A stretch of DNA of 64,000 nt from an uncultured archaeon (GTDB lineage: Archaea; Asgardarchaeota; Lokiarchaeia; Sigyniarchaeales; SOKP01). A program made the position numbers and the translations under genes. The stretch spans positions 1 through 64,000 of the forward strand of contig CAZALK010000003.1 of NCBI GenBank assembly GCA_964486045.1, written 5' to 3'. The notes below the pieces were generated by a model. The model had not been told where the DNA came from. It ran no database searches and saw only the letters and a list, made by a program, of their open reading frames with translations. Below, one piece after another: positions 2-38,017 of this stretch (its first letter is position 1; each line of letters begins with the position of its first letter).

Positions 2-484
2 TCACTATTAAGCGGGAGTGGTGATAGTCAAGCAGCAGCCGCTCCAGCAGCCGCAGCTGCCTCAATACCCGCAGCACCCGCACCACCAGCAGCTGCCTCA
101 ATACCCGCAGCACCCGCACCACCAGCAGCTGCCTCAATACCCGCACCACCAACAACTGCTGGACCGCCAAAAGCACCTTCAAATGGCCCTCCTAAACCAC
201 CCACAAGTCCTCCAAAAGCACCTTCAAGTGGCCCTCCTAAACCACCCACAGGTCCTCCAAAAGCAGGTAATTTACCAGCAGCACCGAAATTACCACCTTC
301 TGGATCGCCACAGGCCCCACCTAGTTCAGGACCGCCACATGCTAAAAGGCCAGTTGGACCTCCTGGAGGTGGACCTCCAGCTCCGGCAGACGCAGCACCT
401 CAAGCTGGAGGAGGTTTAAGCTCTCTTAGAGATGAAATGCTCGATGAGCTTAACCGTTTGAAAAAAATCATGCGAGGAGAATAA
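2..484 (+). CDS. 3' part of an Ala/Pro-rich protein with a C-terminal WH2-like amphipathic motif (5'-partial, runs off the window)
   Basis: Frame +2 is open from nt 2 to TAA 482-484: SLLSGSGDSQAAAAPAAAAASIPAAPAPP...GPPKPP...GGGLSSLRDEMLDELNRLKKIMRGE*. It is absent from the ORF track because its start lies outside the window. Confidence 0.85.
   Translation, partial: SLLSGSGDSQAAAAPAAAAASIPAAPAPPAAASIPAAPAPPAAASIPAPPTTAGPPKAPSNGPPKPPTSPPKAPSSGPPKPPTGPPKAGNLPAAPKLPPSGSPQAPPSSGPPHAKRPVGPPGGGPPAPADAAPQAGGGLSSLRDEMLDELNRLKKIMRGE
53..151 (+). repeat. In-frame 36-bp tandem repeat (AAASIPAAPAPP), two full copies plus a shortened third
   Basis: gcagctgcctcaatacccgcagcacccgcaccacca at 53 and 89, with a partial copy at 125. 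Confidence 0.9.
167..265 (+). repeat. In-frame 45-bp tandem repeat (PKAPSxGPPKPPTxP), two copies plus a stub
   Basis: ccaaaagcaccttcaa[a/g]tggccctcctaaaccacccaca[a/g]gtcct at 167 and 212. Confidence 0.9.
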
Positions 485-631
485 CCAGTCCACCGATCTG
501 GCAAAGACTAGCAACCTGTTATAATAAATATCAATTTATCCTGTTTTAATTTTTAAAAATGTCATATTTTTCCCCTTTAGGAATTTTAGAAATCTCAATA
601 GACTATAAAGTTATAAACTTGATTAATTTAG

Positions 632-925
632 TATACCCCCCCAAATGGAAAAATTGTAGTAAAAACAGATTTAAAAGATGATTTTGTGTTGATTTCTGTG
701 ACCGATGATGGGATTGGGTTTACGGAGGATCAGAAAGAGAGGGTTTTTGTCCGTTTTGGAAAAATCGAGCGTTATGGTCAAGGGATTGATTTAGGGATTG
801 ATGGGACTGGTCTTGGTCTGTATATTTCAAAAAAAATTGTAGAGTCTTATGGTGGTAAAATCTGGTTAGAATCAGATGGTTCTAACAAAGGAAGCACATT
901 CTACTTTACTATCCCTATTGCTTGA
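632..925 (+). pseudogene. Orphan C-terminal HATPase_c fragment of a histidine kinase
   Basis: YTPPNGKI...VTDDGIG...GTGLGL...GSTFYFTIP. The frame is preceded by TAG at 629-631, where the N-box NAIK should be. No HisKA or sensor part is present. Confidence 0.8.
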
Positions 926-1172
926 TAATATTTTACACTTTTAGTGGATCTCTTTTTCGATAAAATTTGGCGTAAATTAATTCTTCTACAAGAGTAATAT
1001 AATCAAGTATGACGTTATAGCACTTGTTAAAATCTATGTCTAATTTGTTACTTCCAACTTTATAATGAACAATAGTTTAAAATATATCTATTTTAATTCC
1101 CGATTAAATAATATTATATTAAGGAGTATTAAAGAAACTTAAATATTGAATAAACATTTTCAGGCAAAAAGA

Positions 1173-2294
1173 ATGGGAAATCTTACTGTAGTTATAGATA
1201 TCGGTCAATTCTCTACTAAAATCGGGTTTGCGGGAGAAGATTCTCCAGCTCAAGTATTTTTAACGATGGTCGGGAAACCAAAATATCAAAGTATAAGTAT
1301 TGATTATTCAAATTCTAAGAAAAGAGAAGACGAACTTTATGTTGGTGATGAAATCCAATCTATAGGACTTTATAAAATTTTTCATCCAATAGAAAAGGGG
1401 ATCATAATTGATTGGAAACATTTTGAAAATATTGTTAATTATATCTTTTATAATTTAAGAGTTGACCCTTCTTTAGTTAATGTCCTTTTAGCCGTCCACC
1501 CGTTATTTCCACGTAAGGATTTAGAAAAGATTTTTGAACTATTTTTAGAAAGACTTCAATGTATGAATTTTTATCCGGTTTTAGATTCGATGCTTACTTT
1601 ATATTCAGGTGGTTTTCAAACAGGCTTGATTGTAGAAATTGGTGACAGTAATACACGGATTGTACCGATATATGAAGGTTATAAATTAAATCATGCAGTA
1701 AGAATTCTGGAAATAGGTGGTAAAGTATTGACTAAATATATGGAAAAAATCTTAGAATCTATAGGGTGGTCAGTTGATTCTTCTATTCGAAGAGAGTTAG
1801 TTAGAGCTCTAAAGGAAAAGGCTTGTTTTGTTTCTTTAGATTATAAAGAAGATCTAAAAAGGAGTGAACAATACAACAAAGAATATTCATTACCAGATGG
1901 ATCAACAATCTCACTAAATAATGAAAGATATACTGTTCCAGAGCTCTTATTTAACCCTTCTACTGAATTGGAGGAAGTCTCGCTGCCTGTAGCTATTATA
2001 GATGTAGTAGAAGCTTGTGATTTAGATATTCGCCCGGAATTATTAAATAATATATTTTTAAGCGGAGGATCTTCCATGTTTCCTAATTTAAAATCAAGAA
2101 TGTATCAAGAATTAGAACTTGAACTAGCTAGAAGGAAGAAAAAAAGTCAAAGTGTAAGAATTATAGCCCCACAAGAGCGAACCTTTTCTGTATGGATAGG
2201 TGGTTCAATATTAGCAAAGATTCCAGAATTTTCAGAGAACTGGATATCTCGAGCAAAATATTTTAAAGATGGAATCCCCCCTAACTTGTTATAG
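1173..2294 (+). CDS. Actin-related protein (Asgard Arp, actin family)
   Basis: Motifs VVIDIGQFSTKIGFAGEDSP, YVGDE, PIEKGIIIDW, IVEIGDSNTRIVPIYEGY, LKEKACFV, YSLPDG, LSGGSSMFP and ERTFSVWIGGSILA. ATG 1173 is preferred over TTG 1146. Confidence 0.95.
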   Translation: MGNLTVVIDIGQFSTKIGFAGEDSPAQVFLTMVGKPKYQSISIDYSNSKKREDELYVGDEIQSIGLYKIFHPIEKGIIIDWKHFENIVNYIFYNLRVDPSLVNVLLAVHPLFPRKDLEKIFELFLERLQCMNFYPVLDSMLTLYSGGFQTGLIVEIGDSNTRIVPIYEGYKLNHAVRILEIGGKVLTKYMEKILESIGWSVDSSIRRELVRALKEKACFVSLDYKEDLKRSEQYNKEYSLPDGSTISLNNERYTVPELLFNPSTELEEVSLPVAIIDVVEACDLDIRPELLNNIFLSGGSSMFPNLKSRMYQELELELARRKKKSQSVRIIAPQERTFSVWIGGSILAKIPEFSENWISRAKYFKDGIPPNLL

Positions 2295-2394: not shown

Positions 2395-2733
2395 ATGGAA
2401 GAAAGGGAACAGGAAAAATATTATAATCCAATTTATTCGGTCTTGTTTAACAAAATTAAAGATATCAAAACTCCAATTAAAAATGAAATATTAAAAGCTC
2501 TCCTTGATGGACAATGGCATTCTGAGCGTGAACTCATTAGAGTATCAAAAAAACAGCATGGATTTGTTGGAGCAGTTACATTAGGAACAATGGTTAATTC
2601 ATTAAACCACTCGATTAAAAATAATTATTTACAAAAGAAAGTCGTAAATGAAAAGCTGTATTACAAGATTACCGACAATTTTGTTGGATTAACAAGAGCT
2701 GCATATAGGTTTAATGCAAAAAGATTCTTTTAG
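2395..2733 (+). CDS. Small winged-helix-like hypothetical protein
   Basis: EILKALLDGQWHSERELI...YLQKKVVNEKLYYKIT fits a helix-helix-wing pattern. Confidence 0.6.
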   Translation: MEEREQEKYYNPIYSVLFNKIKDIKTPIKNEILKALLDGQWHSERELIRVSKKQHGFVGAVTLGTMVNSLNHSIKNNYLQKKVVNEKLYYKITDNFVGLTRAAYRFNAKRFF

Positions 2734-2826
2734 CAAAAGGATATTCAAACTTTTGAATTTATCCCTCCTGAAGATTTAATGGTTTTTAAAATGCAGTAGG
2801 GAGATATTATTCAAAGTTATATCGAA

Positions 2827-4971
2827 TTATTTTTTTATGCAAGTATCTTTTGAAATTTTAAAGTCTCTACAATTAGAGCAAAACCCTTTTCCCTTTTCAA
2901 AATCATTCCAACAATTAGGACATAAGTAGTAATTATAACTCTTATCGTTTTTTCGAAGGGAAATCTTAAAAATATTGAAGTTACAAACTAAACAAATAGA
3001 ATTCAACAATAAAAGTCTTCCTTTCTTGGGCAAGGATAAATATTTCTTACAATTATCATCTGAACAAACTAAAAATCTTTTGTTTTTTAAATTTATGAAC
3101 TTCATTGGATAATTTAGACAATTAGGACATCTAGATGATGTTTGAGGTATTTTTTGAGGTGTTTTGTTTTTTATTTTTAAATTGTTTGCTTTGGAGATAA
3201 TATCATGCTTGTTTGCCAAAAACTTATCAAATAATTTCAAAAACTCTATTCTTATTTCATACACCACATTATGCATTTTCTCTCTTTTTTCTTTAATATC
3301 TTCAAGTTTTTCTTCGATCATTTTAGTAAAATCTGGTTTAAGAAATGGTAACCATATTTTTATCAAGATCTCGACTAGAAATTTACCTAAATCTGTTATA
3401 AAATATTGATATTTAACTCTATTTATTACTTGCCTCTTTTGTAGTATATATATTATTTGAGGTCGTGTGGATTTTGTCCCAAGATGATTTTTTTCCATTA
3501 ATTTAAGTAAAGATGTGTCTGTGTACCTGGGGGGGGGTTTGGTTTCTTTTTGGTTGAGAGTTATTTCTTCTACAGCTATTTTCTTACTTGAAATTTGTAT
3601 TTCTTCTTCATATTTGGGTTTAAGGAAAGGAGCAATTTCAAGAAATCCTTTAGAAATTAAAGAAACTCGCTGAGATCTAAAAGGTTCATCCTTAATGGAT
3701 AAATTTAGAATTTGTGTTGATTCAATTGCGTCTTCGCCAAATAATGCAAGATAATGTCGGGTAAGTAAGTTATATACTTTTTTCTGTAAATTATTTTCTA
3801 ATTTTGTGCTATTTACTTCTAGGCTTTCTAGAGGAGTAATTGGCGGATGATCACCAGCATCTTTCTTTCCTCTAGTCGGTCTCATTCTCCTATTTTGTAC
3901 TAATGTTAAGCTATATTTTCCTAATTGAGAATGTGAAGTGAACTTATCCAAAATTCCTTTATGATTAAAATATGGTTTATATACATCACTATCTGTCCTA
4001 GGATAAGAGATTATTTTATTTAGGTATAATTCATTCATAGTTTTCAAGGCAGTGTTCGCGGGGATTTTTAAATTTCTCGTGAGAAGGATTAAAGCTTTTG
4101 ATGTATTTAAAGGAGTCGGTGGAGATCTTTTTTTAGAATTCTTAGCAATATCGACAACTATTCCAATTTTTTCATTTTGAATTTTTTTAAAAATTTGTCG
4201 TACTTGGGATTCTGCATCTTTTTTAAAAGGATTTGAGAGATGATGTGCTTTAAAAGTCCCTTTATCATGAACTAAGACCGCATCTATTAAAAAATATACC
4301 TCAGGTATAAAATTTTCGATATTTTGTTCTTTTAAATAGATTAAATAAAGAAGACTTGTCTGAACTCTACCGATCGAAGTAAATTTAACTCCAAAATTAT
4401 TGAGTAATGGACGAAGAGTATTGCTAACCTCTCTAGTGGCAGAAAAACCAATTACTGCATCAATTATTGCTCTAGCCTCTCCTGATTCCCCCCAACTGAA
4501 CTTTGGGACTATTAAATTGCTAAATTTATTAAGAATCTCATTCGGTTGAAGTGAACTAAGCCACAGTTGTGAAACCTTTATATTTGGTTTTATTTGCTTA
4601 ACATAAGGGAGAGCATCGAACAATCCTATATTACATCCTTCAATATCCGCATCAGTTGCAATTATACATTGATCACAGATTTTAGCAAATACTTCAATTG
4701 TTTTTATATACGGAAATGCATATTTGATGGGCATTTTTTTTATTGAAATTGGATCTAAAATTATATCTCGAGGTATAGGATTTTTCCAATTTTTATATTT
4801 CTCAGTATTTCTATATTCAAGAATATGGCCCCTAAGAGGGACTATATATATGTCTTTACTATTTATATAATATACGTTTACCTTAGTTTTATTTATTTTA
4901 GAATATGAACCTAATGCACTTGCAATAGCCATTGCTGCTTTATTTTTCTCTGCAATTATTAAAGTGGGCAT
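2827..4971 (-). CDS. topA: DNA topoisomerase type IA with C-terminal Zn ribbons
   Basis: IIAEK, LRGH, ATDADIEG, SIGRVQT, catalytic ISYPRTDS, DHPPITP and LGTKSTR, followed by several CxxC pairs. Confidence 0.95.
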   Translation of the reverse strand: MPTLIIAEKNKAAMAIASALGSYSKINKTKVNVYYINSKDIYIVPLRGHILEYRNTEKYKNWKNPIPRDIILDPISIKKMPIKYAFPYIKTIEVFAKICDQCIIATDADIEGCNIGLFDALPYVKQIKPNIKVSQLWLSSLQPNEILNKFSNLIVPKFSWGESGEARAIIDAVIGFSATREVSNTLRPLLNNFGVKFTSIGRVQTSLLYLIYLKEQNIENFIPEVYFLIDAVLVHDKGTFKAHHLSNPFKKDAESQVRQIFKKIQNEKIGIVVDIAKNSKKRSPPTPLNTSKALILLTRNLKIPANTALKTMNELYLNKIISYPRTDSDVYKPYFNHKGILDKFTSHSQLGKYSLTLVQNRRMRPTRGKKDAGDHPPITPLESLEVNSTKLENNLQKKVYNLLTRHYLALFGEDAIESTQILNLSIKDEPFRSQRVSLISKGFLEIAPFLKPKYEEEIQISSKKIAVEEITLNQKETKPPPRYTDTSLLKLMEKNHLGTKSTRPQIIYILQKRQVINRVKYQYFITDLGKFLVEILIKIWLPFLKPDFTKMIEEKLEDIKEKREKMHNVVYEIRIEFLKLFDKFLANKHDIISKANNLKIKNKTPQKIPQTSSRCPNCLNYPMKFINLKNKRFLVCSDDNCKKYLSLPKKGRLLLLNSICLVCNFNIFKISLRKNDKSYNYYLCPNCWNDFEKGKGFCSNCRDFKISKDTCIKK

Positions 4972-37816: not shown

Positions 37817-38017
37817 AAAACAGATCACTTTTAACATTACTACTTTACTTCAATCTGGTTTTATATTTTGATAGAAATTATATTTTGATAAAGAAATAGT
37901 TCAAAATTTTACCATATTTCCTTATATTATAACAATAGTATTTAATGACATAATTGAGAATAAATATTTAATCTATAATAATTGTCATTAACTGTGAATA
38001 TTTGGTATTAAATAAAC

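What the first reader, a model, noticed from the sequence alone, without database searches (positions are those of the whole stretch)
2..2294. Polyproline + WH2-like protein encoded just upstream of an actin-related protein (WASP/VASP-like logic)
Seen in sequence: the real frame at the window start is +2. It gives a long Pro/Ala/Gly-rich region ending GGGLSSLRDEMLDELNRLKKIMRGE*. Established knowledge: eukaryotic actin regulators (WASP/WAVE, Ena/VASP) place polyproline tracts before a WH2 motif, an amphipathic helix such as RDALLDQI followed by LKK(T/V). Here RDEMLDEL..LKKI fits, with a short linker. Only a decayed kinase shard separates this gene from the co-oriented Arp. Inference: an Asgard nucleation-promoting or elongation-factor-like protein genetically linked to an Arp.
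Basis: partly seen in the sequence, partly recalled or inferred. Interest (0 to 1): 0.8.

Follow-up and report, generated by a model that had tools for sequence, protein, structure and literature searches.

The report
Asgard proline-arm adaptor with docking helix
This gene encodes a real but undescribed protein found in most Asgard archaea, with a head, a floppy proline-rich arm and a nearly unchanging end helix; it is a testable candidate for a missing actin regulator, but it is not a recognisable WH2 protein and its link to the neighbouring actin-like gene holds in only one family.

Summary
Observation mostly confirmed. Joining contig C27 (exact 55-bp overlap) gives the whole 244-aa gene: a 50-aa helix, a short helix, a Pro/Ala/Gly arm and an end helix (LRxEMLxELxRLK). 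The end helix is found in 314/400 Asgard genomes, mostly single-copy. It sits on a soluble head or on a membrane-anchored head with a steadiness-box-like hairpin, and recurs inside unrelated Loki proteins, sometimes in tandem.

It fails the WH2 tests: linker 1 residue (4-10 expected), LKK[VTA] in 0/32 diverse members, no Pfam hit, and AlphaFold draws one helix through LKKI. The longest proline run is 2.

The gene lies upstream of the Arp in 109/109 testable genomes of its own family, but 0/4 in the sister family. Several lineages carry the helix and only Lokiactin. In published L. ossiferum data, the inferred orthologue is absent from the stored rows of the Lokiactin co-IP and of the abundant proteome (weak evidence against). 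The 'decayed kinase' is a young 99%-identical duplicate.

Best reading: an adaptor that presents a docking helix to a phylum-wide partner; Lokiactin is the leading single candidate (about 0.3). This scan found the family before on other genomes.

The parts
2..484 (+). 3' 160 codons of the 244-aa proline-arm protein; the first 84 codons (50-aa helix and most of the short helix) lie on contig C27 from position 37842
14..406 (+). Pro/Ala/Gly low-complexity arm (PP dipeptide units, no run of 3 or more Pro); predicted disordered; variable in length among orthologues
416..472 (+). conserved 19-residue amphipathic end helix, pan-Asgard; predicted as one continuous helix that includes LKKI (458-469)
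625..1002 (+). 378-bp, 99.2%-identical copy of the 3' end of a histidine-kinase gene on C23 (HATPase_c ORF 686-925); not part of the conserved locus
1104..1122 (+). AT-rich element like the one seen by eye 50-80 bp upstream of the Arp in most genus members; candidate own promoter of the Arp (inference)
1173..2294 (+). Asgard actin-related protein, 373 aa, about 41% identical to Lokiactin; orthologue of L. ossiferum UYP44126.1; found only in this family and its sister family within the class
2395..2733 (+). 112-aa gene that follows the Arp throughout the family (conserved block member, function not tested)

Best explanation
The protein is a flexible adaptor. SHOWN by sequence and prediction: it has a head, a disordered Pro-rich arm and a free 19-residue amphipathic end helix; the helix is the only part kept across Asgard archaea; the head is exchangeable (soluble 50-aa helix plus short helix in Loki, Odin and four other families; one to ten membrane segments plus a steadiness-box/CdvA-like hairpin in ten others); and the helix is reused inside unrelated proteins. 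INFERRED: the head places or oligomerises the protein, possibly together with an 88-91-aa protein encoded beside the soluble form, and the arm lets the helix reach and dock into a groove of one conserved phylum-wide partner. The most likely single partner is Lokiactin, bound in the barbed-end cleft in the manner of arcadin-2 or the VASP FAB helix and not as a WH2 with an LKKT extension (about 0.3 overall). The neighbouring Arp is at most a family-level secondary partner.
For: Motif in 314/400 genomes and 68/85 genera, mostly one copy; distant hits checked by eye have the same arm-plus-terminal-helix layout. L, R, E, M, L, E, L, R, L, K are 84-100% conserved while one stripe (positions 20, 24, 27, 31) varies, so charged as well as hydrophobic faces are constrained. 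AlphaFold: helix pLDDT 84-95, no packing on the head (pTM 0.24 and 0.33). Reuse inside Ras/Roc-like GTPases, an LRR protein and Cys-rich proteins, two or three tandem copies with flexible spacers in some, as expected of a docking motif. For Lokiactin as partner: it is present in all Asgard lineages (PMC9834061) and is the only actin in five distant genomes plus Odinarchaeum that carry the helix; arcadin-2 is an archaeal precedent for a C-terminal helix in the actin groove (PMC5173319); the first five helix residues fit the WH2 helix pattern; a second Asgard arm-plus-helix family with a related helix (hhalign probability 88%, E=3e-6) resembles the VASP FAB motif; the gene stays next to an Arp in a whole family.
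Against: No binding is shown. In the L. ossiferum Lokiactin co-IP (bioRxiv 10.1101/2025.11.30.690169, Suppl. Table 2) the tag inferred for the orthologue, GNAMCCOK_00620, is absent from all stored rows (ratios from 10 down to -1.06; 841 lower rows were cut), although profilin and five gelsolins were enriched. It is also absent from the stored abundant part of the proteome, so low abundance could explain this. The abundant sister-family protein (02219, mean 18.5) is not in the stored co-IP rows either. No sequence match to any solved actin ligand. The hydrophobic spacing also suits a coiled coil, and the membrane form's hairpin points towards ESCRT-I/CdvA.
Confidence: 0.45

Rival explanations
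1. The end helix is a homo-oligomerisation coil, like the C-terminal tetramerisation coil of VASP. It clusters the heads, and proteins that carry a copy join the same bundle.
For: Hydrophobic residues at 3-4-4-3-4 spacing along a continuous helix at the extreme C-terminus, with possible i/i+3 salt bridges. This would explain the lack of a co-IP signal with Lokiactin.
Against: About 5 turns only. Pfam VASP_tetra does not hit it in five genomes. Two or three tandem copies inside single chains and near-invariant outward-facing charged residues fit a ligand motif better.
Confidence: 0.25
2. The helix docks on a non-actin partner of the membrane-remodelling machinery, such as a Vps4 MIT domain, ESCRT-III or another pan-Asgard protein; the family is an ESCRT-I/CdvA-like adaptor.
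For: The membrane-anchored form has a hairpin whose best structural matches are the human ESCRT-I headpiece (TM by target 0.8, E=0.14-0.20) and Vps23-C (rmsd 0.5 A over 59 columns, E=1.5), with a CdvA coiled-coil cluster in the Atlas and weak Pfam CdvA (5.7e-4) and Vps23_core (0.07-0.11) hits. Steadiness box and CdvA hairpin are reported as related (PMC11188069).
Against: None of these matches is significant. No ESCRT gene was noticed among the neighbours read (judged from N-terminal sequences, not by a family scan). The window's soluble form lacks the hairpin. The MIM1 spacing recalled from memory (L-x-x-R-L-x-x-L) is not met.
Confidence: 0.22
3. One reading: a WASP/VASP-like nucleation-promoting factor with a true WH2 and a profilin-binding tract, dedicated to the neighbouring Arp.
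For: Upstream and co-oriented with the Arp in 109/109 testable genomes of the family, median gap 923 bp. Both orthologues fall below the stored abundance cut in L. ossiferum. Pieces of the gene block persist in neighbouring families.
Against: WH2 tests fail. No acidic tail. Longest proline run 2, and Loki profilins were reported not to bind VASP polyproline (as cited in PMC8410842). 43-272 kb apart in the sister family. The helix exists where no such Arp was found. A PIG-L gene or other inserts usually separate the two genes, and each appears to have its own transcription signals.
Confidence: 0.08

Closest known systems
Arcadin-2 of Pyrobaculum (crenactin regulator; PDB 5LY3; PMC5173319)
   Same: Archaeal protein near an actin-family gene; its activity lies in a short C-terminal amphipathic helix that binds the actin groove.
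   Different: No sequence similarity detected. The protein here has a coiled or membrane head and a long Pro-rich arm, and binding to actin is untested.
WH2 domain proteins (WASP, WAVE, WASH; Pfam PF02205; PMC3298513)
   Same: Pro-rich region before a short amphipathic helix; the five-residue helix pattern fits; followed by LKK in this lineage.
   Different: Linker 1 residue instead of 4-10; fourth motif residue I/L/F, never V/T/A; second basic residue missing in 13/32 members; helix continues through LKKI; no C or A domain.
Ena/VASP EVH2 region: FAB helix 259-278 and tetramerisation coil (PMC10340426)
   Same: A Gly run followed by a helix with hhxEhNxh spacing; Pro-rich arm; a predicted oligomerising helix in the same chain.
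   Different: No basic ARRRK-type cluster, no EVH1, no GAB, no long proline runs; Pfam VASP_tetra negative. The second Asgard family (C1:492390-492848) fits FAB better than this protein does.
ESCRT-I Vps23/Vps37 steadiness box and CdvA coiled-coil hairpin (PMC11188069)
   Same: The membrane-anchored relatives have a helical hairpin and coiled coil of similar shape, plus a Pro-rich region.
   Different: Matches are below significance, the domain order differs, there is no UEV domain, and the window's soluble form has no such hairpin.
Asgard actin-related proteins (L. ossiferum UYP44126.1; PMC9834061)
   Same: The gene at 1173-2294 is the orthologue (50% identity, E=1.3e-119) of a published Asgard ARP.
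   Different: The neighbouring proline-arm gene is not mentioned in the papers read.

Membership tests
WH2 domain | [quoted passage not shown] | tested here: inconclusive
   First five positions fit; the sixth is N
WH2 domain | Linker of 4-5 (up to 10) residues between helix and LKKT motif | tested here: not met
   One residue, with no gap in any family member
WH2 domain | L[KR][KR][VTA] motif | tested here: not met
   0 of 32 diverse members; 13 of 32 lack the second basic residue
WH2 domain | Match to Pfam PF02205 | tested here: not met
   No hit at E<=10 on 16 peptides or at the motif's place in five genomes
WH2 domain | Helix ends before an extended LKKT segment | tested here: not met
   AlphaFold2 predicts one helix through LKKI in both forms, without a partner
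WH2 domain | Binds the actin subdomain 1/3 cleft | not testable with these tools
   Needs binding assays or a co-structure
Class I nucleation-promoting factor (WASP family) | C and acidic A segments after the WH2 | tested here: not met
   The chain ends 3 residues after the helix with no acidic tail
Ena/VASP | Polyproline runs that bind profilin (five or more Pro; established knowledge) | tested here: not met
   Longest run 2 here and in 55/70 orthologues; 5 in one
Ena/VASP | FAB helix with basic cluster | tested here: inconclusive
   Gly run and helix spacing similar, basic cluster absent
Ena/VASP | EVH1 domain and tetramerisation coil (PF08776) | tested here: not met
   No such Pfam hits in 70 full-length members or at the motif's place in five genomes
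ESCRT-I / CdvA steadiness-box proteins (membrane form only) | Steadiness-box helical hairpin | tested here: inconclusive
   Top Foldseek hits are ESCRT-I chains at E=0.14-0.20; Pfam CdvA 5.7e-4 in 1/12 and Vps23_core in 2/12, all below cut-off
Actin family, Asgard ARP (gene 1173-2294) | Pfam Actin match and orthology to a published Asgard ARP | tested here: met
   E=4.6e-91; orthologue UYP44126.1

The most novel reading that the evidence does not exclude
[quoted passage not shown] With its FAB-like sister family it forms the missing layer of filament-tethering or elongation factors: soluble in Loki and Odin, membrane-anchored through a steadiness-box hairpin in other lineages, and borrowed by GTPases and other proteins to reach the cytoskeleton.
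Probability: 0.25. Interest if true: 0.9.

Novelty: new variant of a known kind. Interest (0 to 1): 0.55.

Why it matters
Asgard archaea crawl with Lokiactin-filled protrusions, yet only profilins and gelsolins are known as regulators; nucleation and elongation factors have not been found (PMC9433394, PMC13716822). A near-universal, single-copy family with a swappable membrane or soluble head and an almost invariant docking helix must bind something central. Its orthologues in the cultured L. ossiferum (inferred UYP44328 / NEF87_000613) and in Odinarchaeum (WEU40329.1) make the question testable with a 20-residue peptide. If the partner is actin, this bears on the origin of WH2/FAB motifs; if it is ESCRT or self, it still defines a new core Asgard module.

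Tried and rejected
Pfam, PDB sequence and ESM Atlas searches gave no named family. A link to the Loki 2DGel C-terminal Zn domain: a motif-bearing Cys-rich protein did not match it in the PDB. CCDC53/WASH relation: one weak hit among 70 members, among many generic coiled-coil hits; rejected as composition. Strict co-occurrence of the 88-91-aa neighbour with the soluble head: it holds for most families sampled, but my test on genus g76 failed, since those genomes have the small protein and the membrane head. The alternative Gln/His/Pro-rich frame at 18-419 is a shadow of the real frame. 'Decayed kinase': rejected. The supplement of PMC9834061 holds no locus-level data for these genes, and PMC13716822 has no supplement held. 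Literature searches for Asgard with WH2, polyproline, VASP or nucleation terms found no description of this family; the library lacks most subscription papers.

Full report
OBSERVATION. The window begins at the first base of contig C3. The last 55 bases of C27 are identical to the first 55 of C3, one of 21 such end overlaps in this assembly, and the join gives a 244-aa ORF that matches complete orthologues of 221-305 aa in the genus. The protein has a 50-aa N-terminal helix, a short amphipathic helix, a Pro/Ala/Gly arm and a terminal helix. AlphaFold2 shows exactly these three helices, with no tertiary packing (pTM 0.24). Two details need correcting. The arm is 28% Pro but its longest Pro run is 2, as in 55 of 70 orthologues. 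The intervening 'decayed kinase' (625-1002) is a 99.2%-identical copy of the end of an intact kinase gene on C23; relatives have a PIG-L gene, other inserts or nothing at this place.

THE FAMILY. All named homologues are 'hypothetical protein' of Asgard archaea, and the Atlas returns only unnamed Promethearchaeota clusters. A profile of the last 34 residues hits 314 of 400 genomes of the phylum (68 of 85 genera), mostly once. I read the distant hits: they are arm-plus-terminal-helix proteins of two kinds. The soluble kind occurs in the Loki class, in Odinarchaeum (WEU40329.1) and in four other families. The membrane kind has one to ten transmembrane segments and a helical hairpin with a coiled coil; the hairpin's nearest structures are ESCRT-I chains and a CdvA-like cluster, all below significance. 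Among 1.84 billion proteins the profile finds 108 at E<=0.001, all of these kinds or proteins with internal copies (the library has no taxonomy). Internal copies occur in Ras/Roc-like GTPases, an LRR protein and Cys-rich proteins, in some cases two or three in tandem. Ten positions are 84-100% conserved, including five charged ones, and one stripe of the helix varies.

IS IT A WH2? By the published pattern (PMC3298513) the first five helix residues fit, the sixth does not, the linker is 1 residue instead of 4-10, and the motif ends in I, not V/T/A. Across 32 diverse members none has L[KR][KR][VTA] and 13 lack the second basic residue, so LKKI is a lineage feature within a longer helix. Pfam WH2 and VASP_tetra do not hit it, and no solved structure matches. 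There is no C/A tail. It is not a member of the WH2, WASP or Ena/VASP families. Whether it works like an actin-groove helix is a separate question; arcadin-2 shows that an archaeal C-terminal helix can do so without being a WH2 (PMC5173319).

LINK TO THE ARP. The Arp orthologue was found in 116/134 genomes of this family and 12/14 of the sister family, and in none of 12 genomes of five other families of the class. Where both genes lie on one contig, the arm gene is upstream and co-oriented in 109/109 genomes of this family (median gap 923 bp), but 43-272 kb away in 4/4 of the sister family; kin are not independent samples. Six distant genomes, including the closed Odinarchaeum genome, carry the helix and a single, Lokiactin-type actin. 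T-rich tracts follow the arm gene and a shared AT-rich element precedes the Arp in the genus (by eye), which suggests separate transcripts. The more ancient neighbour of the soluble form is an 88-91-aa gene, adjacent in 25 loci across Loki, Odin and three more families and never in membrane-form loci; its distribution largely follows the soluble head, with one genus as an exception.

PUBLISHED PROTEOMICS. G171 is Ca. Lokiarchaeum ossiferum. The orthologue lies between UYP44327 and UYP44329. I mapped the paper's tags by gene order and molecular weight (00612 = 36.98 kDa, 00420 = 50.83 kDa, 02218 = 24.01 kDa), which makes the arm protein GNAMCCOK_00620, the Arp 00418 and the sister-family protein 02219; this mapping is my inference. 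In Supplementary Table 2 of bioRxiv 10.1101/2025.11.30.690169, neither 00620 nor 00418 appears in the stored rows of the Lokiactin co-IP (ratio 10 to -1.06; 841 rows cut) or of the proteome (mean LFQ above 14.4; 3,120 rows cut), while profilin and gelsolins were enriched. This is weak evidence against a strong Lokiactin interaction, confounded by low abundance.

A SISTER FAMILY. The genome has a second helix-arm-helix protein (C1:492390-492848, 152 aa). Its end helix is found in 148/201 Asgard genomes, aligns with the first helix in register (hhalign probability 88%, E=3e-6), follows longer Pro runs in many members and in some lineages closely resembles the VASP FAB motif as printed in PMC10340426. 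It is abundant in L. ossiferum (mean 18.5) but also absent from the stored co-IP rows.

MECHANISM. Most likely an adaptor: an exchangeable head localises or oligomerises it, and a flexible arm presents a docking helix to one conserved partner (0.45; Lokiactin is the leading single candidate at about 0.3 overall). Rivals are a homo-oligomer coil (0.25), an ESCRT-side or other non-actin partner (0.22, overlapping the adaptor model) and a WASP-like factor dedicated to this Arp (0.08). Anatomy, distribution and gene order are shown; every binding step is inferred.

NOVELTY. I found no description of the family in the papers searched. Earlier agents of this scan reached a similar view on other genomes; those notes are not independent support. 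New here are the recovered full gene, the synteny counts, the origin of the kinase fragment and the cross-check against the Lokiactin co-IP. Interest 0.55: a real, near-universal, undescribed Asgard module that is cheap to test, with its actin role unproven and its WH2 label wrong.

Noticed in passing
G000 C1:492390-492848 (-); L032:6391-6849: Second pan-Asgard family (coiled coil, longer proline runs, end helix). Some members closely resemble the VASP FAB motif; found in 148/201 genomes; abundant in L. ossiferum. A better Ena/VASP-like candidate than the finding itself.
   Followed up: partly
G000 C27:37142-37417 (-); L031:7143-7418: Unnamed 88-91-aa protein, divergent from the arm gene here and adjacent to the soluble form across Loki, Odin and three more families; no Pfam or Atlas name.
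   Followed up: partly
window 1173-2294: Aligned to Lokiactin, the Arp has Asp and Arg at the positions of the catalytic Gln and His, and changes in the C-terminal half of the barbed-end cleft.
   Followed up: partly
window 625-1002: 99.2%-identical copy of the 3' end of a kinase gene on C23:55324-55701; recent duplication or mis-assembly.
   Followed up: partly
G000 C18:38578-39036 (+): 152-aa Cys-rich protein with a degenerate internal copy of the same helix; orthologues in several family members (L172, L173, L179, L181).
   Followed up: partly
G000 C1:345k and C24:48.5k (L143, L144): Two Lokiactin-like genes, 83% identical, in this assembly (contamination estimate 7.8%); paralogue or strain mixture.
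   Followed up: no
L089, L090, L097, L109, L110, L113, L116, L117, L118, L120: The membrane-anchored form is repeatedly encoded next to ribose-5-phosphate isomerase A.
   Followed up: no
L251:3001-4035 (P0170): 344-aa protein that begins with three tandem copies of the helix separated by near-identical flexible spacers.
   Followed up: partly
L026-L030, L129: In most sister-family genomes, including L. ossiferum, the Arp lies beside a small GTPase gene and a 79-aa gene instead of the arm gene.
   Followed up: no
window 2395-4971: A 112-aa gene and a convergent type IA topoisomerase (Pfam Topoisom_bac) follow the Arp in most family members.
   Followed up: no
G000 C23 (L146:2484-4763) and C15 (L147:3054-4052): Two more Pro-rich proteins: a 759-aa protein with a vWA-like end, and a 332-aa protein with a coiled coil and Zn ribbon; neither has the helix.
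   Followed up: no
G000 contigs C40, C45: GC about 0.58-0.59 against 0.31 for the rest of the assembly; likely contamination.
   Followed up: no
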